Shown here in pieces: positions 4,169 to 8,960 of a DNA stretch of 64,000 bases. Numbering within the stretch: position 1 is the stretch's first letter; each line of letters begins with the position of its first letter. The translations under genes and the position numbers were made by a program. Source of the stretch: a virus. The stretch spans positions 3,834 through 67,833 of IMG/VR virus record IMGVR_UViG_3300050821_001994. One strand, given 5' to 3'. The notes under the pieces were generated by a model, which did no database searches, was not told where the DNA came from, and saw nothing but the letters and a program-made list of their open reading frames with translations.

Positions 4169-4292
4169 TCCGGAAACCGTACGCATTTTGAGTACAAACG
4201 TACTCTTTTTGCGTACATCTTGAGGTCGCAAATTGCGACTAGAGCGTGGAACCCGTTGAGGGCTTAAGGGCGGCACGTACAAAAACCGCCCA

Positions 4293-4563
4293 ACAATTTT
4301 AGTAACAAGTTTAAGTTGTGTGGGCGAGCGGCTAAAGCCTGACCCATACCTATAAAGCGGAGAGAGCAAAAAGACGGGGGTATGGCCCGAGTCTCTCGTT
4401 CGCACGAAGGTTCGAAACCTTCCGCAACTTAAAGTTCACGGGCCGAAGAAGGAACTGCATCAATCTTCGGAGCAATCTATCTGTCAAGCCTATTGGATCA
4501 ATTCCGCCCTGCATGGGGATTTACACGCCTCTAGGTAGCCCGTACAATTTTAGTAACAAGTTT
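4293..4563 (+). repeat. 20-nt direct repeat ACAATTTTAGTAACAAGTTT (4293-4312, 4544-4563)
   Basis: Exact duplicate; each copy directly precedes a structured RNA. Confidence 0.9.
4310..4433 (+). ncRNA. tRNA-like RNA with an expanded, pseudoknotted anticodon region
   Basis: Acceptor stem AGTTGTG/CGCAACT, D-arm GGC-GAGCGGCTAAA-GCC, T-arm GAAGG-TTCGAAA-CCTTC; no normal anticodon arm and no CCA. Confidence 0.65.
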
Positions 4564-4713
4564 GAAGCGTGAGCGAGGAATGATCCCCTCCGCGCTGTCT
4601 ATAAAGTAGCCGCTCGAAAGAGAGACGCGGGATGACCAAGACCTTCCCGCCCTGCCCACCGCGAAAGCGACACGGATCATTGGGACAGATAGGCGAGGGC
4701 AATATCACGCTTC
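4564..4713 (+). ncRNA. Unclassified structured RNA
   Basis: Closing stem GAAGCGTGA/TCACGCTTC; AATGATCC/GGATCATT pairing; GAAA tetraloops; no ORF. Confidence 0.55.
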
Positions 4714-4980
4714 TTTACTAACGGAGTCGAAGTCCCGGAAAAAGACGCGGCAACCTCACATTAGCCCGTCAAAGGTCCAGTAACCCGATTGTGAAACGGG
4801 CAGGATCAACTTCTTCAATTTTGACGTAAGGGCCGGATTGCCCGTAACGTCCCCAAACCGTGCGTGAGGGAATATTTCGAGATTCTCTACCTCGAAGCCC
4901 GCAAATCTATCGGATTATAGATTGCCCGCGAGCGCACAAGAGCAGCTTAGGCTGAACTTAGACTTAACAGGTGACTACCT

Positions 4981-7900
4981 ATGGGCTTTAGCCCAGCATC
5001 AAATAACCAGTCAAACCTGCCTCAGTCCACGGTTCGTTACTACGACAAAAAGTTCCGTTTGTAAATCTCGCGGAATTGTAGGCCAAGCTGAAATACCTGA
5101 TTTGGAGAACCTGAAGGCTTAATTTGGGCCTTTAGAGCAGGTAGAAATAAAACTCGGCTATATCGGTGAACCTCTGATTTGTCAACCTGACAATCATTGT
5201 GATATAATCAGACAATACCGAGGAAAGACGTTTTGAAAGAAACCAAATTTGCTTATGTGGCCGGACTCATTGACGCTGACGGAAGTTTTTCAATCAGCCG
5301 ATCCGAATCCAAAGAAGGCTACATTCACTACGACCCTCTGATAAGGATTCGATCCAAACATTTGCCGACCATGCGATGGCTGGTTGACACGTTTGGTGGC
5401 TATCACCGCCCACAAATTTTAGATGGTGAAATCTACTATCAGTGGAAATTTAGTAGCGACACACAAGCTTCGCGGTTTCTGGAGAAGATTATTCCGTATG
5501 TATGGATCAAACAGCAGCAAGGTTTGGTGCTGAAAGAATACTACGGGCTACAAGGCGTTCAAAATAAACCTTTGCGACAGTCCTTGTACGAGAAAATAAT
5601 AACTCTAAACCAGAACGAATCCGTCACGACTAATACGCCGAGATTGCCGTTTTCCGGAAAGATTCTACCCGCGTACCTCGCGGGGGTTTTCGACGGAGAA
5701 GGCAGCGCATACGTTATACGAGTGAAACAAACCTATAGTAGTGGGTTTTACTACAGGGCTTCGATTTCTCTAGGCATGTCTTATAAGCCCCTGATTATGG
5801 AGCTACAAAGACTGTATGGAGGAGCGTGGCGACAACGACCCCCGCATCGCGGGAAGTTGCCGATGTACCAGTGGGACGTACAAGACAACAAGAGCAAAGA
5901 AATCTTCTCGTTGTCCGTACTTCCATATCTGGTAACGAAGCGAGAGCAAGTCAATATTGCACTCAATTTCGCTCGTATGAACGGAAAACCCGATCCCGAA
6001 AAAAGGATCGCAATGTGGAAACGCTGCTGCGCTTTGAACGGCAATATGATAGAGCCTGAACTCGCGGGTGACCGCGAGAGCGCCTCGTTGGTGACAACTA
6101 CGGCCTAAACACTCCTGCAAACCCCCTTCGTCGCGTGCTCCGAGCGTCTCGACCTCCCGATGAAGAGTGGTAACCAGTACAACCTCTACATGTACGTCCC
6201 GCTCGCAGCGAATACTGCTCAGACCACCGAGGGTACTGTGGGCAGCGGCGTCACGGTTAGCGTTCTGAATACTTCGGCTACGATTGGCGAGTACGCAGAC
6301 TATGCTAACTTCTCCAGCCTTTCGCTCGCGACCGCAATCGACAACACTGTTGAGAACGTCGCCCGTGAAATGGCCTACCGTTTGGGCGAGTCATTGTCCG
6401 CTCTGGTCCGTGCAACTGCGGACGGCGCGAACAGCGTTGATAGCTCGGTACTGACGAAGCTCGCTGCTACGTCAACCACCAGCTTCACGACTCTCTCCCT
6501 GACCTACATCCGAAACGCTGTCCAGTCTTTGGCTGGTCGCTCGGTTCGCCCGTTCGATGATGCTAGCAAGAACTTCGCTGGCGTTATCCATTAACAGTAG
6601 GGTGGATATAAAACTTGACTATATCGGTGGATATCTGTTATAATTTGTCAATCTGACAGACAATACCGAGGTAAGGTCCAATGTTCCAAATAAGCAAGAC
6701 AAAGTGCTCGTATCTGGGCGGCTTGGTTGATGGTGAAGGCAATATCTGCATCTGGCGCACCGAAGCCCGTGCGCATGATTATAAAGTTTCAGGAAGAGTT
6801 TATCCTTCGTTTAATCTGAGACTGCATATTGCAAACACCAACGTAACTCTCATGAAATGGTTAGTCTCGAACTTCGGTGGTGTGTACCACATGAAGAAGG
6901 AAGCCACGGATCGGCACGCAGCCGCTTACGAATGGCGGCCTAAAGGCGAGGGAAACACGAAGCGTACTTTGCTCGCAATTTTACCGTACTTGGTAATCAA
7001 GCGAGAACAAGCGATTCTGGCCCTCAAATATATCGAGCTACCGCAGCAGGCTCCCGAAGCCCGTGAAGCGATCTACCAACGCATGAGACAACTAAACCAA
7101 AAAGGACCAAAAACCGTAACGACTAATACGTCAAGCTCTTTGCTACTTCCTGAGATTCCGGAAACCGTATGGGAAGCCCTCAGGGAACATGAAGAGAAGA
7201 TAGAGTCTGAACTCGGCAGTGATGCCGAGAGCGCCCCCGTAGTGATGCGGGGCTCGGGTACGGCTCAATCAGTTGAGCAACAACTTCAGCAAGCAGGACA
7301 GAGAATAGTCAACGCTTTGCTGGACGCCCGTTAAGCCTAAACACAATTACCTTTCGCCCTTGGCGACGTTCTGGCGGACAACTCGAACGACTCTCCCATC
7401 GACATCCTGAAGCGGACCCCGCAGGGTTACGCCCGTCTTGACGAAATCATCTCGACGGACCTGACCGAAGTCATCGAAATCCCGACTTCCGGCGTCAGCT
7501 TCTTCCAGTCAAACCTCGTCACCACGTCCTCGAACTACAATCCGGGAACTGGCGCTGTTACTGGTTTGACCGCTCTGCGTACCTATCAAGCCACAGCTTA
7601 GGTAGCTTTCACGGGCGACCGTGATTGAAAAACAAGGCTAATTCGGTGAACATCCGGTTTCCGGACAATACCGAGCGAAGCCCGCAAGTTATCGCGGGAA
7701 CGTGTAGAGACTATAGACCTTGCTTCCCTCGTGGAAGATGAGATAGTCCGCTCTCATGGGTAACTATGAGAGGTTGGCAGAAATGACCAACCTCAACAAC
7801 GCAAGTTGTTGATAACAAAAGGATTTTCGGTCGCGACGGCATCTTCAGCATAAACCTTGGCGCACAAGGCGACACAGGTTATGGAGATGGCGAATGGCGG

Positions 7901-8251
7901 AACATCCGATGCAACATCGTACAGAATGCCGAGCCTTCGGTCGCTGATCCTAGCGGCTTGATCCCCGGCTGGACTTCCTTAACAAACTAGGGGCACCGTA
8001 CGGATAACGTACGAATGCGAATTTCCTCTGATTAAGCTGAACCCTGAAACGGGAACAGACTGCAAGCAGCGAAAGCGGGCAGCAGTAGAGACTGAGCGAG
8101 GAAATGCCCGGACACGGGCAATGCGACAGTCCGATCTTGTGGGAATCAAACCACAAGCTAACACCTTGATAGAGTCCACTTTACGACGAGCCTCGGGCCC
8201 GATACTACCATTCGTATCCGCGAGATCGACGCAGCGTCGGCAATCAGCTAG
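4981..8251 (+). CDS. Major capsid protein (N4 gp56-like), spliced; exons 4981-5058, 5105-5119, 6118-6591, 7350-7586, 7823-7979, 8169-8251
   Basis: RBS AGGTGA; joined exons total 1044 nt and are open in frame: MGFSPAS..YYDKKFR|ENLKA|QTPFV..AGVIH|PFALGD..LRTY|IFGRDG..GWTS-Y-RVHF..SAIS*; YYD, IHP and IFG motifs fit gp56-like capsids. Confidence 0.88.
5059..5104 (+). other. 46-nt intervening sequence, candidate coreless group I-like mini-intron
   Basis: Contains in-frame TAA and shifts frame; exon UUCCGU pairs GCGGAA with U.G at the junction; UCUC pairs 3' exon GAGA; ends in G. Confidence 0.7.
5120..6117 (+). mobile_element. Group I intron 1 in capsid gene
   Basis: P1 AAGGCU/GGCCUU; P10 UUUG/CAAA; P3 CTCGGC/GCCGAG; P4 TCGGT/ACCGA; GACTA P7 strand; terminal G. 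Confidence 0.9.
5233..6108 (+). CDS. Double-motif LAGLIDADG homing endonuclease (intron 1)
   Basis: YVAGLIDADG and YLAGVFDGEG motifs; TGTGATATAAT promoter-like element upstream. Confidence 0.92.
   Translation: MKETKFAYVAGLIDADGSFSISRSESKEGYIHYDPLIRIRSKHLPTMRWLVDTFGGYHRPQILDGEIYYQWKFSSDTQASRFLEKIIPYVWIKQQQGLVLKEYYGLQGVQNKPLRQSLYEKIITLNQNESVTTNTPRLPFSGKILPAYLAGVFDGEGSAYVIRVKQTYSSGFYYRASISLGMSYKPLIMELQRLYGGAWRQRPPHRGKLPMYQWDVQDNKSKEIFSLSVLPYLVTKREQVNIALNFARMNGKPDPEKRIAMWKRCCALNGNMIEPELAGDRESASLVTTTA
6592..7349 (+). mobile_element. Group I intron 2 in capsid gene
   Basis: P1 AUCCAU/GUGGAU; P3 CTTGAC/GTCAAG; CCGTAACGACTA; same architecture as intron 1; last base is A. Confidence 0.88.
6681..7334 (+). 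CDS. Single-motif LAGLIDADG homing endonuclease (intron 2)
   Basis: YLGGLVDGEG; ILPYLVIKREQA. Confidence 0.9.
   Translation: MFQISKTKCSYLGGLVDGEGNICIWRTEARAHDYKVSGRVYPSFNLRLHIANTNVTLMKWLVSNFGGVYHMKKEATDRHAAAYEWRPKGEGNTKRTLLAILPYLVIKREQAILALKYIELPQQAPEAREAIYQRMRQLNQKGPKTVTTNTSSSLLLPEIPETVWEALREHEEKIESELGSDAESAPVVMRGSGTAQSVEQQLQQAGQRIVNALLDAR
7587..7822 (+). mobile_element. Group I intron 3 (236 nt, no ORF)
   Basis: P3 CAAGG/CCTTG; TCGGT/ACCGA; GTAGAGACTA..GATAGTCC P7; P9 hairpins; terminal G; removal restores TY|IFG. Confidence 0.88.
7980..8168 (+). mobile_element. Group I intron 4 (189 nt, no ORF)
   Basis: P1 UCCU/GGGG; P3 TTTCCTC/GAGGAAA; GTAGAGACTG..GACAGTCC P7; terminal G; removal restores the T|AT codon. 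Confidence 0.88.
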
Positions 8252-8372
8252 TTTGTCCGTTTGACAAACTTTGTGGTATAATCTAATTAGGTAGGGTAAT
8301 TCCTGCCTATTGAATTCGAGAGGGCGGGTGCCTTCATCACTCGCCCCCTTGATTCCCTATGAAGGAGGGAAT

Positions 8373-8960
8373 GTGGTCGAAGTAAAAATAGGAGATGTAT
8401 ACGGGCGCTTAACTGTTGTTGCCCGAGAAGAAAACGACGACAGACAGTTAACGCGGTGGACGTGCCGATGTAGTTGCGATGGCAAGTTGGTAGTCAAACA
8501 CGGCTTTGCTCTCCGAAGAAAAGTTAAGCCGACCAGAAGTTGTGGGTGTCTCCGGGCATACACAGCGATTTTGAACAACCACAAGAAACCGGGTCATCGC
8601 GCAATACATACTCCTGAGTATTGGGCATTCAAGGCGGCGTTCGGTCGCTGCACTAATAAGAACAACAGAAGTTACCCGCACTACGGCGGGCGGGGGATTG
8701 AGTTTCGATTCGCCTGTTTTGAAGATTTTCTTAGAGACGTAGGCTATCGTCCGTCTCCGAAACACTCCCTAGACAGAATTGATAATAACGGGCATTACGA
8801 AGCGGGCAATATGCGGTGGGCTACAAAAGCAGAGCAGGCCAAGAACAGACGCCGCCCTTTTGATCCGGACCGTATACAGGATGATTTGAATAGACTTCTT
8901 GTAGATTATGCTTTGGTGGCTTCAGCACAACTTGTCAACTTGACAAACGCCGTGCAATAG
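8373..8960 (+). CDS. Free-standing HNH-type homing endonuclease
   Basis: YGRLTV..CRCSC, YGGRGI, SLDRIDNNGHYEAGNMRWAT; GAAGGAGG RBS; TGTGGTATAAT promoter upstream. Confidence 0.85.
   Translation: MVEVKIGDVYGRLTVVAREENDDRQLTRWTCRCSCDGKLVVKHGFALRRKVKPTRSCGCLRAYTAILNNHKKPGHRAIHTPEYWAFKAAFGRCTNKNNRSYPHYGGRGIEFRFACFEDFLRDVGYRPSPKHSLDRIDNNGHYEAGNMRWATKAEQAKNRRRPFDPDRIQDDLNRLLVDYALVASAQLVNLTNAVQ

What the first reader, a model, noticed from the sequence alone, without database searches (positions are those of the whole stretch)
4981..8251. Major capsid gene cut into six exons, including a 15-nt micro-exon
Seen: five intervening sequences make up about two thirds of the locus, and the joined exons give an open 347-codon frame. 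Known: well-studied phage group I introns lie mostly in DNA-metabolism genes, usually one to three per gene. Inference: capsid output depends on five splicing events. Because the micro-exon is 15 nt, joining 5058 directly to 6118 would give an in-frame isoform lacking ENLKA.
Basis: partly seen in the sequence, partly recalled or inferred. Interest (0 to 1): 0.8.

Follow-up and report, generated by a model that had tools for sequence, protein, structure and literature searches.

The report
Capsid gene with core-less mini-intron
A soil phage's only capsid gene is cut into six pieces by four self-splicing introns and a 46-base leftover intron with no catalytic part, and soil RNA shows all five removed exactly, so the leftover most likely borrows its neighbour's ribozyme.

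Summary
Confirmed. Window 4981-8251 (+) holds a major capsid gene in six exons (78, 15, 474, 237, 157, 83 nt; 347 codons). The joined product is 338/347 identical, without gaps, to an intronless relative. That relative's protein models as an HK97 fold, and the best PDB match is the phage N4 capsid.

Contigs from two soil metatranscriptome runs carry the joined exons, including the 15-nt micro-exon. A DNA run is colinear with the window.

Four intervening sequences are group I introns, two of them with LAGLIDADG genes. The fifth (5059-5104, 46 nt) has no ribozyme core. It keeps only an 8-bp P1 with U.G at the splice site, an adjacent 4-bp P10 and a terminal G. A relative has a full intron with the same guide at the same site.

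Nine further mini-introns in relatives show the same signature. Each lies about 15-81 nt upstream of a full intron.

One RNA contig joins intron 1's last G (6117) to the mini-intron's first base (5059). This fits intron 1's core acting on the mini-intron's splice site.

Ribosomal bypass is excluded as the route to the observed mRNA. This scan had already noted such mini-introns on other genomes. My literature searches found none described in phages.

The parts
4981..5058 (+). Exon 1 (26 codons, start ATG 4981); its last 8 nt (5051-5058) form the exon strand of the mini-intron's P1
   Evidence: tblastn of the Tunturi_3 capsid protein, residues 1-26; RNA contig X2 record 8 ends this block at 5058
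5059..5104 (+). Core-less 46-nt mini-intron. The guide is at 5066-5077: 5066-5069 pair with the next exon 5105-5108 (P10, 4 bp), and 5070-5077 pair with 5051-5058 (P1, 8 bp, U5058.G5070). The terminal G is 5104. It carries an in-frame TAA at 5062-5064, and its length is not a multiple of 3.
   Evidence: Sequence; P1 hairpin in the MFE fold; 5 of 5000 shuffles reach P1+P10; removed exactly in RNA; full intron with the same guide at the same site in L154
5105..5119 (+). Exon 2, the 15-nt micro-exon (ENLKA); its last 6 nt are the exon strand of intron 1's P1
   Evidence: All intronless homologues read ...KKFR-ENLKA-QTPF...; these 15 letters stand between 5058 and 6118 in RNA contigs of X2 and X3
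5120..6117 (+). Intron 1, group I (family A), 998 nt. P1 5114-5119/5127-5132; P10 6118-6121/5123-5126; P3 5153-5158/5637-5642; P7 5' strand within 5626-5633; J8/7-P7' 6048-6056; P9 6061-6067/6072-6078; terminal G 6117. It is the proposed helper ribozyme.
   Evidence: motif coordinates; shares core motifs with intron 3, which Rfam scores as group I; circle junction 6117>5059 and RNA cover of its body
5233..6108 (+). Double-motif LAGLIDADG homing endonuclease ORF (291 aa) inside intron 1; it reads through P7, P3', J8/7-P7' and P9
   Evidence: Pfam PF00961 E 3.4e-09 and PF14528 E 8.6e-07; coordinates
6118..6591 (+). Exon 3 (158 codons)
6592..7349 (+). Intron 2, group I (family A), 758 nt. P1 6585-6591/6602-6608; P3 6614-6619/7130-7135; P7 5' strand within 7119-7126; J8/7-P7' 7199-7207; P9 7212-7218/7223-7229. 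It ends in A (7349), not G.
   Evidence: weak Rfam match 7030-7229 (18.4 bits); joint 6591>7350 in X2 and X3 with no positional ambiguity
6681..7334 (+). Single-motif LAGLIDADG ORF (217 aa) inside intron 2
   Evidence: Pfam PF00961 E 2.1e-05
7350..7586 (+). Exon 4 (79 codons)
7587..7822 (+). Intron 3, group I (family A, no ORF), 236 nt; the local helix leaves the splice-site U opposite a U
   Evidence: Rfam RF00028 at 7583-7770, 43.8 bits (gathering score 50), E 4.6e-09; joint 7586>7823 in X2 and X3
7823..7979 (+). Exon 5 (157 nt)
7980..8168 (+). Intron 4, group I (family B, no ORF), 189 nt
   Evidence: Aligned with 9 related ORF-less introns; RNAalifold gives P3-P6, P8, P9 and P9.1, and 31 of 39 pairs show compensatory changes; P7 carries its own compensatory pair; joint 7979>8169 in X2 and X3
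8169..8251 (+). Exon 6 (83 nt including stop TAG)

Best explanation
The locus is the single major capsid (HK97-fold) gene of a soil phage related to the Tunturiibacter (Acidobacteriota) phage Tunturi_3. Four genuine group I introns interrupt it, two of them carrying LAGLIDADG homing endonuclease genes. It also contains a 46-nt remnant of a fifth group I intron that has lost its whole catalytic core. The remnant keeps only what defines splice sites in group I chemistry. These are a P1 hairpin that pairs the end of exon 1 with an internal guide (U.G at the cleavage site), a directly adjacent P10 pairing with the start of the micro-exon, and a terminal G.

Shown: all five sequences are removed from the RNA exactly at the predicted sites.

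Inferred: the mini-intron is removed by the two group I transesterifications, catalysed by a borrowed ribozyme core. The most likely donor is intron 1, which starts 15 nt downstream. In this model one core serves two sets of P1/P10/terminal G in the same transcript. The mini-intron must be processed while intron 1 is still present.

A side reaction joins intron 1's terminal G to the mini-intron's first nucleotide. This gives a circle of mini-intron plus micro-exon plus intron 1.
For: (1) Splicing in RNA. An X2 contig of 1244 nt carries E1, the 15 micro-exon letters, E3, E4 and E5 (table 8); the joint 7979>8169 into E6 is also listed for X2 in table 5. X3 repeats three of the joints and the E1-E2-E3 join. 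DNA run X1 has no such joint. Contigs of both RNA runs join across introns 2 to 4.

(2) The contigs come from this phage. All 6 X2 contigs and 8 of 10 X3 contigs are 99% or more alike to the window. The nearest intronless relative is only 80% identical in coding DNA.

(3) Group I signature of the 46-nt insert. The exon ends in U paired to G, P1 is 8 bp, the adjacent P10 is 4 bp and the insert ends in G. Only 5 of 5000 dinucleotide shuffles do as well.

(4) Origin. L154 has a full 582-nt family B intron at exactly this codon boundary, with the same 8-nt guide and a similar start and end.

(5) Recurrence. There are 10 distinct mini-introns of 34-70 nt, counting the window's and those in L002, L007 group, L016, L161, L022 group, L035, L047, L060 and L158. 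All 10 have U.G at the splice site, a P1 of 6-8 bp, an adjacent P10 of 4-8 bp and a terminal G. The shuffle test covered 8 of them, and 0-69 of 5000 shuffles matched each. L027 and L060 have full introns at the sites of the L035 and L002 minis.

(6) Position. All 10 lie roughly 15-81 nt upstream of a complete group I intron. None of the 113 single-HSP loci (46 of 80 and 67 of 80) can hold a stop-bearing or frame-shifting insert.

(7) One RNA-only X2 contig (221 nt) reads 6009-6117 followed directly by 5059-5170. This is the junction expected if intron 1's terminal G attacks the mini-intron's 5' splice site. That is the full-length circularisation route described for group I introns (PMC3679873, passages read).

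(8) Feasibility. Engineered group I ribozymes excise internal segments defined by P1, P10 and a G from other RNAs (abstracts of PMC2532722 and PMC4094466).
Against: No experiment or read-level data show which core acts in the productive reaction. The circle junction is a by-product and comes from one contig in one run. It proves joint use of site 5059 and G6117, not that intron 1 catalyses E1-E2 ligation.

The two RNA runs are from 2018 soil studies that may belong to one campaign. They are contigs, not reads, so intermediates and rare isoforms are invisible.

The closeness to a downstream intron could partly reflect clustering of intron insertion sites in this gene.

I found no conserved pairing that would place the mini-intron's terminal G in the neighbour's G-binding site. 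A tail-to-exon helix was significant in only 3 of 10 minis and not in the window.

Rfam's group I model scores only intron 3, below its gathering score, and gives a weak hit in intron 2. It misses family B entirely. Group I status of introns 1, 2 and 4 therefore rests on shared motifs and covariation.

Intron 1's P7 has an A.C mismatch.

Fungal 56-81-nt group I remnants are reported to splice on their own (PMC3160393).
Confidence: 0.62

Rival explanations
1. The mini-intron is removed by group I chemistry, but the core comes from any of the other introns (2, 3, 4) or from excised, free intron RNA acting in trans, not specifically from the adjacent intron 1.
For: Four cores are made from the same transcript. 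Engineered ribozymes work in trans (abstracts of PMC2532722 and PMC4094466). The mini-intron derives from a family B intron, and the only family B core in this gene is intron 4, not intron 1.
Against: All 10 mini-introns lie about 15-81 nt upstream of a full intron. A freely diffusing helper would not require this. The junction 6117>5059 links intron 1's own terminal G to the mini-intron's 5' splice site within an RNA that still has mini-intron, micro-exon and intron 1 contiguous.
Confidence: 0.2
2. The 46-nt element is a minimal autonomous ribozyme, like the 56-81-nt 'degenerate' group I introns of fungal SSU rDNA, which have P1, P7 and P10 and of which PaSSU is reported to splice in vitro.
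For: PMC3160393 (abstract and background read) reports such small introns and cites in vitro splicing of the 67-nt PaSSU.
Against: The parts of the 10 minis outside the guide are unrelated remnants of different intron regions and share no P7-like hairpin. The fold of 5040-5125 shows only P1 and a pairing with the micro-exon, and its overall z-score is -0.45. An autonomous element would not need to lie beside a full intron, yet all 10 do.
Confidence: 0.06
3. The insert is removed by proteins, an endonuclease plus an RNA ligase as in tRNA or HAC1-type splicing, and the group I-like pairings are merely inherited remnants.
For: The Tunturi phage paper mentions a phage-encoded tRNA splicing ligase in Tunturi 5 (passage). 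No such gene was looked for in this window.
Against: Remnant pairings would decay. Instead P1 and P10 are kept at different sites with different sequences in all 10 minis, always with U.G and a terminal G. No bulge-helix-bulge or similar motif is evident.
Confidence: 0.04
4. The insert is not spliced. Ribosomes hop from TTG 5059-5061 (followed by TAA) to TTG 5102-5104, as in T4 gene 60, or they shift frame.
For: The layout has matched take-off and landing codons with a stop and a hairpin. The T4 gene 60 gap is itself thought to be a degenerate group I intron (PMC5009743, passage).
Against: RNA contigs of two runs lack the 46 nt exactly. The hop would add a Leu that no homologue has.
Confidence: 0.02
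5. The 'spliced' RNA contigs come from an intron-free strain with identical exons, not from splicing.
For: 46 of 80 and 67 of 80 related loci are intronless, so intron-free alleles are common in this clade.
Against: Intronless relatives in hand differ by about 20% in coding DNA, whereas the contigs are 99% or more alike. DNA run X1 has no joined form. The same RNA runs hold intron 1 RNA and the circle junction, so the intron-bearing phage is transcribed there.
Confidence: 0.03

Closest known systems
[quoted passage not shown]
   Same: Several group I introns sit in one phage gene, with a very short exon between two of them. Cross-talk between neighbouring introns (exon skipping, cooperative formation of one ribozyme) is discussed.
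   Different: In those cases both neighbours are complete ribozymes. Here the upstream partner has no core at all, and the observed mRNA includes the micro-exon rather than skipping it.
Small 'degenerate' group I introns (56-81 nt) of fungal nuclear SSU rDNA, e.g. Phialophora PaSSU 67 nt (PMC3160393)
   Same: They are tens of nucleotides long and retain P1 and P10 and little else. They are thought to arise by internal deletion of a full intron.
   Different: They occur in eukaryotic rRNA genes, form one monophyletic lineage at one site, and are said to keep a P7 and to splice by themselves. The phage minis arose repeatedly at different sites, have no common P7, and always lie just upstream of a full intron.
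Phage T4 gene 60 50-nt coding gap
   Same: [quoted passage not shown] It has matched codons at both ends and a hairpin at the start.
   Different: The T4 gap stays in the mRNA and is bypassed by the ribosome. Here the insert is absent from the RNA.
Engineered trans-excision-splicing ribozymes and 'spliceozymes' (PMC2532722, PMC4094466; abstracts read)
   Same: A group I core removes an internal segment that has no ribozyme of its own. The segment is defined by P1, P10 and a G.
   Different: Those are laboratory constructs with the guide in the ribozyme. Here the system is natural, and the guide lies in the segment that is removed.
Group III introns of Euglena plastids
   Same: They are drastically shortened derivatives of a self-splicing intron class (group II). 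They keep the splice-site elements and are presumed to depend on trans-acting help.
   Different: They belong to a different intron class, use different chemistry and occur in a different host.

Membership tests
Group I intron (introns 1-4) | P1 helix pairing the end of the 5' exon with an internal guide, with U.G at the cleavage site | tested here: met
   Met for introns 1 and 2: P1 of 9 and 7 contiguous pairs from a U.G, plus P10 of 4 and 3. Intron 4 is weaker: P1 of 5 pairs with U-A, or 4 pairs with U.G, and P10 of 1 in either case. Not met in canonical form for intron 3, where the local helix leaves the splice-site U opposite a U.
Group I intron (introns 1-4) | Conserved core P3-P9 with the P3/P7 pseudoknot and G-binding P7 | tested here: met
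   Intron 3 matches Rfam RF00028 over the full model, 43.8 bits, E 4.6e-09, below the gathering score of 50. Introns 1 and 2 share its P3, P4, P7, J8/7 and P9 motifs at the listed coordinates. For intron 4, alignment with 9 relatives gives P3-P6, P8, P9 and P9.1, with compensatory changes in 31 of 39 pairs, and P7 has a compensatory pair. Rfam at gathering score finds nothing in the window and misses family B in 5 relatives.
Group I intron (introns 1-4) | Terminal G (omega-G) | tested here: met
   Introns 1, 3 and 4 end in G. Intron 2 ends in A, confirmed by joint 6591>7350 in two RNA runs. A documented exception exists in hexacoral ND5-717 (PMC6545197, passage).
Group I intron (introns 1-4) | Exact excision and exon ligation in RNA | tested here: met
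   All joints are present in X2. Three are repeated in X3, together with the E1-E2-E3 loose end. None is present in DNA run X1.
Group I intron (introns 1-4) | Self-splicing in vitro with guanosine | not testable with these tools
   This needs transcription and splicing assays.
Group I intron (46-nt mini-intron 5059-5104) | P1 with U.G, adjacent P10 and terminal G | tested here: met
   P1 is 8 bp (5051-5058/5070-5077), P10 is 4 bp (5105-5108/5066-5069) and the terminal G is 5104. Only 5 of 5000 shuffles do as well.
Group I intron (46-nt mini-intron 5059-5104) | Own catalytic core (P3-P9, G-binding site) | tested here: not met
   Only 27 nt follow the guide. The fold shows no further helix within the insert, and there is no Rfam match. 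It is therefore a derivative of a group I intron, not a self-contained member.
HK97-fold major capsid protein (phage N4 capsid-like) | HK97 fold and end-to-end homology with capsid proteins | tested here: met
   PHROG 1357 'major head protein', E 1.7e-16. AlphaFold model of the 97%-identical intronless L003 protein: pLDDT 84.4, pTM 0.80. Foldseek top hits are phage capsids: N4 9e99_A E 1.2e-12 TM 0.60, GP4 8h89_C TM 0.70. No Pfam family matches. The window's own joined protein was not folded.
LAGLIDADG homing endonuclease (intron ORFs) | LAGLIDADG motif or motifs and a profile match | tested here: met
   PF00961 above its cutoff for both ORFs: 37.9 and 25.8 bits against a cutoff of 23.1. PHROGs label the same families 'HNH endonuclease', which I take to be a naming inconsistency. 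Endonuclease activity was not tested.
Programmed translational bypass (T4 gene 60 type) | The coding gap is retained in the mature mRNA | tested here: not met
   The 46 nt are absent from the RNA contigs of two runs.

The most novel reading that the evidence does not exclude
Phage group I introns have non-autonomous derivatives. These are 34-70-nt 'guide-only' introns that have lost the ribozyme and survive in an essential gene because the core of the next intron downstream splices them as a second substrate. One ribozyme would then serve two introns, with an obligatory order of removal. The window's mini-intron may in turn lend a guide sequence to intron 3, whose own P1 is defective. The introns of this gene would then form an interdependent splicing network rather than five independent elements.
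Probability: 0.5. Interest if true: 0.9.

Novelty: new variant of a known kind. Interest (0 to 1): 0.8.

Why it matters
Group I introns are treated as self-contained: each carries its own ribozyme. Here a natural intron has only the splice-site guide, yet it is removed exactly from the mRNA of an essential gene.

If a neighbour's core does the work, this is a natural counterpart of engineered trans-excision ribozymes. It would also be the group I equivalent of non-autonomous mobile elements.

Three further consequences follow:
- It explains how a frame-breaking, stop-containing insert can persist in a phage's only capsid gene.
- Gene callers and intron finders will mis-annotate such genes. The protein library holds many fragment 'proteins' of this capsid family, and Rfam misses most of these introns.
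- It offers a compact test system for how a group I core selects among competing P1/P10 sets, and for splicing order, exon skipping and circle formation.

The RNA evidence here, both the exact removal and the junction of the neighbour's terminal G to the mini-intron's first base, moves the idea from sequence inference towards observation.

Tried and rejected
Ribosomal bypass or +1 frameshift for the 46-nt gap was my first idea (note). I rejected it because the RNA lacks the gap and homologues have no extra residue.

I considered that the mini-introns keep the 3' strand of P7 and swap it into the neighbour's core. I dropped this. The L002 tail aligns with the P3/J3/4 region of a full intron. 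The window's tail holds a P5 motif. The tails are therefore varied remnants.

A helix between the mini-intron tail and the downstream exon, as described for fungal small introns, was significant in 3 of 10 minis (L002 29/2000, L060 13/2000, L158 51/2000). It was not significant in the other 7, including the window at 1312/2000. This is inconclusive.

A hairpin between 5079-5084 and 5116-5121 would mask intron 1's 5' splice site until the mini-intron is gone. It appears in the MFE fold, but the fold's z-score is only -0.45, so it is only a possibility.

Rfam results:
- Gathering threshold on the whole window: 0 hits.
- Five relatives (59 kb) at E <= 0.01: 0 hits.

A motif scan for further introns in the window found nothing convincing outside 4981-8251. 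No tRNAs were found.

A pattern search for exon end plus guide in viral contigs gave 53 stretches. None encodes a capsid relative, so they are chance matches.

Loci not evaluated further after the spliced alignment:
- L061, which is non-homologous after position 1572.
- L017, whose apparent gaps lie inside an intron at the contig end.
- L076, which gave a low-score alignment.

Mini-intron and exon boundaries in relatives come from my own alignment and may be off by 1-2 nt.

No contig shows the isoform without ENLKA. Contigs cannot show absence.

RNA cover, which the tool says belongs in this section only. The bodies of introns 2 and 3 (bins 6610-7279 and 7682-7815) and the 3' flank (8352-8600) have no cover in either RNA run, while DNA run X1 covers them. 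Intron 1's body is covered in both RNA runs. These figures are contig-level depths and do not measure abundance.

Literature searches:
- 'group I intron' + 'mini-intron': 5 papers, none relevant.
- 'group I intron' + 'micro-exon': 6 papers, mitochondrial cases with full introns, seen as a listing only.
- A five-term search on core-lacking introns spliced by a neighbour: 15 papers, 12 listed, none describing this.
- 'degenerate group I intron': 3 papers.
- The Tunturi phage paper has 0 occurrences of 'intron'.

I found no description of core-less group I introns beside full introns in phages. Subscription journals and supplements were not searchable.

Full report
WHAT IS THERE. The + strand from 4981 to 8251 contains pieces of one protein gene separated by stop-rich sequence. 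A tblastn search of exon 3 against annotated phages gave one hit. It was the uninterrupted 'major head protein' gp6 of Tunturiibacter phage Tunturi_3 (PP885686.1, an Acidobacteriota phage), 84% identical. Mapping that protein back on the window gave five blocks. The five residues between blocks 1 and 2 (ENLKA) are encoded at 5105-5119.

The exact exons are 4981-5058, 5105-5119, 6118-6591, 7350-7586, 7823-7979 and 8169-8251. They total 1044 nt, or 347 codons plus stop. Intervening sequence makes up 2227 of 3271 nt, which is 68%. The joined product is 338/347 identical, with no gap, to the intronless gene of IMG/VR locus L003. It is 282/347 identical to Tunturi_3 gp6. The window's record is a 67.8-kb viral contig estimated 74% complete, and this is its only capsid locus.

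WHAT THE PROTEIN IS. No Pfam family matches. PHROG 1357 'major head protein' matches at E 1.7e-16. An AlphaFold model of the L003 protein, built with a 39-sequence alignment, has pLDDT 84.4 and pTM 0.80. Foldseek against the PDB returns only HK97-fold capsid proteins at the top. The first is the phage N4 capsid (9e99_A, E 1.2e-12).

RNA EVIDENCE. An index search found one DNA run (X1, 95% of sampled words) and two soil metatranscriptome runs (X2 56%, X3 41%) that hold the stretch. I laid them on 4600-8600.

- X2 has a 1244-nt contig that reads 4842-5058, then the 15 micro-exon letters, then 6118-6591, 7350-7586 and 7823-7979. The joint 7979>8169 is also listed for X2.
- X3 has a 543-nt contig joining 7350-7586, 7823-7979 and 8169-8273. 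It also has a loose end at 5058 that continues with the micro-exon and exon 3.
- X1 shows none of these joints, and its contigs follow the window.
- All 6 X2 contigs and 8 of 10 X3 contigs are at least 99% like the window. The nearest intronless relative shares only 80% of coding nucleotides. The joined RNA is therefore this phage's own.

All five intervening sequences, including the 46-nt one, are removed at the RNA level at exactly the predicted positions. This excludes ribosomal bypass or frameshifting as the route to the observed mRNA.

THE FOUR LARGE INTRONS. Rfam at its gathering score finds nothing. At relaxed threshold, intron 3 matches the full group I model (43.8 bits, E 4.6e-09, gathering score 50). 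The 3' part of intron 2 matches weakly.

Introns 1, 2 and 3 form one family (A). They share P3, P4, P7, J8/7 and P9 segments at the coordinates listed under parts. Introns 1 and 2 have strong guides, with P1 of 9 and 7 pairs starting at a U.G and P10 of 4 and 3 pairs.

Intron 4 belongs to a second family (B). Aligned with nine ORF-less relatives, it gives the canonical order P3[P4-P5-P6]-P7-P3'-P8-P7'-P9. Compensatory changes occur in 31 of 39 predicted pairs, and intron 4 has a compensatory pair in P7. Rfam does not detect family B.

Introns 1 and 2 carry LAGLIDADG endonuclease ORFs. These ORFs run through P7, P3', J8/7 and P9.

THE 46-NT INSERT. At 46 nt it is far too short for a group I core. 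It holds an in-frame TAA and shifts the frame. Even so, it obeys the group I splice-site rules:
- Exon 1 ends in U5058, which pairs with G5070 at the end of an 8-bp helix (5051-5058 with 5070-5077). This helix is also the dominant hairpin in the energy fold.
- The four bases just 5' of that guide (5066-5069) pair with the first four bases of the micro-exon, forming P10.
- The insert ends in G5104.
- Only 5 of 5000 dinucleotide shuffles of the insert do as well.

A metagenome relative, L154, has a complete 582-nt family B intron at exactly the same codon boundary. It has the same 8-nt guide, a similar first few bases and the same last bases. The window's insert also retains a family B P5 motif. 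The insert is therefore an internally deleted group I intron.

THE SAME THING IN RELATIVES. I examined 80 IMG/VR loci and 80 metagenome loci. Of these, 46 and 67 respectively are single uninterrupted matches. I aligned the rest with a spliced aligner of my own.

There are ten distinct mini-introns of 34-70 nt: the window's, and those in L002, L007/L008/L011 (also L149/L155), L016, L161, L022/L026, L035, L047, L060 and L158. All ten have an exon-final U paired to G, a P1 of 6-8 bp, a directly adjacent P10 of 4-8 bp and a terminal G. I ran shuffle tests on eight of them, and 0 to 69 of 5000 shuffles matched each.

Of those eight, seven have an in-frame stop and the other (L016) shifts the frame. 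I did not check this for L161 and L158.

They occupy at least eight different sites. For two more of them a relative carries a full intron at the same site. L027 and others match the L035 site, and L060 matches the L002 site.

Every one lies roughly 15-81 nt upstream of a complete group I intron. None was found in a gene without one.

HOW IT PROBABLY WORKS. Shown: exact removal, the guide/terminal-G signature, descent from a full intron, and recurrence next to full introns. Inferred: the chemistry is that of group I introns, and the core is borrowed.

One further observation points to intron 1. In X2, a 221-nt RNA-only contig reads 6009-6117 followed directly by 5059-5170. That joins intron 1's terminal G to the first base of the mini-intron, in a molecule where mini-intron, micro-exon and intron 1 are still contiguous. 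This is the product expected from the full-length circularisation route of group I introns. In that route the 3' splice site is hydrolysed and the terminal G then attacks the 5' splice site (PMC3679873, passages). The difference here is that the 5' splice site attacked belongs to the mini-intron. Both ends fall exactly on predicted splice sites, which a chance chimera would not do.

This implies that the mini-intron's P1 can dock in intron 1's active site. The productive route would then be as follows:
- The core binds P1 of the mini-intron.
- The first transesterification occurs at 5058/5059.
- P10 and G5104 define the second, which joins exon 1 to the micro-exon.
- The same core then uses its own P1 and P10 to join the micro-exon to exon 3.

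If intron 1 left first, the helper would be gone from the transcript. The order therefore matters. A possible masking helix (5079-5084 with 5116-5121) appears in the fold, but it is not statistically supported.

Engineered ribozymes show that group I cores can excise core-less segments defined by P1, P10 and a G (PMC2532722 and PMC4094466, abstracts).

WHAT SPEAKS AGAINST THIS OR IS OPEN.
- The circle contig is a single contig in one run and is a side product.
- The RNA runs are contigs, may belong to one sampling campaign, and cannot show intermediates, rates or rare isoforms.
- Closeness to a downstream intron might partly reflect clustering of insertion sites.
- I found no conserved element that would place the mini-intron's terminal G in the neighbour's G site.
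- Fungal 56-81-nt group I remnants are reported to splice alone (PMC3160393), so autonomy cannot be ruled out by sequence alone.

COMPARISON WITH WHAT IS KNOWN. Multi-intron phage genes and capsid-gene introns are known (listing; Twort orf142 in PMC10136302). Short exons between tandem group I introns are known (Twort 23 nt, Coxiella 34 nt). The T4 gene 60 gap is a comparable remnant, but it is bypassed by the ribosome (PMC5009743).

My searches found no published description of core-less group I introns beside full introns in phages.

Within this scan the arrangement has been noted before on other genomes. One of those notes reported RNA showing clean removal. None that I found mentions a junction between the neighbour's terminal G and the mini-intron.

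I therefore rate it a new variant of a known kind.

Noticed in passing
window 7340-7350 (3' end of intron 2); also L035, L058, L023, L068: Intron 2 ends in A, not the near-universal terminal G. The joint 6591>7350 is seen in both RNA runs with no positional ambiguity. Related introns at the same and nearby sites in L035, L058, L023 and L068 also end in A. Its P7 still has the usual G-C pair at the G-binding position. A documented precedent is the hexacoral ND5-717 intron (PMC6545197, passage).
   Followed up: partly
window 7580-7610 and 5066-5082: Intron 3's local guide leaves the splice-site U opposite a U and offers no P10, yet the intron is spliced exactly. The mini-intron holds a stretch that could pair with the end of exon 4 (5 bp, with U.G at G5078). 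After a 1-nt spacer it could also pair with the start of exon 5 (5 bp). 59 of 5000 shuffles do as well, and four junctions were tested. The statistics are borderline and it is untested.
   Followed up: partly
window 5233-6108 and 6681-7334: Both LAGLIDADG ORFs run through the ribozyme core elements (P7 5' strand, P3', J8/7-P7', P9) and end 9-15 nt before the 3' splice site. The same bases therefore serve as both protein code and catalytic RNA.
   Followed up: partly
window 5059-6117: Intron 1 RNA is present in both metatranscriptome runs (contigs 5148-5668 and 5188-5807). Introns 2 to 4 are not covered. Together with the circle junction, this suggests a stable, perhaps circular, intron 1 RNA that also carries the endonuclease ORF. 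These are contig-level data only.
   Followed up: no
window 6053-6056 with 5628-5631: Intron 1's P7 has an A.C mismatch next to the G-binding pair, where intron 2 has A-U. It is unexplained, and the intron is nevertheless spliced.
   Followed up: no
window 4182-4980: About 800 nt without a convincing ORF lie upstream of the capsid gene. RNA contigs begin at 4842 (X2) and 4844 (X3), and a separate X2 contig covers 4618-4779. The capsid mRNA may therefore start near 4842.
   Followed up: no
protein library and relatives L002-L161: Many library 'proteins' of 60-250 aa match only parts of this capsid protein at 60-95% identity. This is what gene callers would produce from intron-split genes, so interrupted capsid genes appear widespread in this soil phage clade. 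In the loci fetched here, 46 of 80 (IMG/VR) and 67 of 80 (metagenome) are uninterrupted.
   Followed up: partly
L002, L007, L047, L060, L022 (family B introns): Rfam RF00028 gives no match at E <= 0.01 to any family B intron in 59 kb of relatives, although covariation supports a canonical group I core. Standard model scans will therefore miss this intron family.
   Followed up: yes
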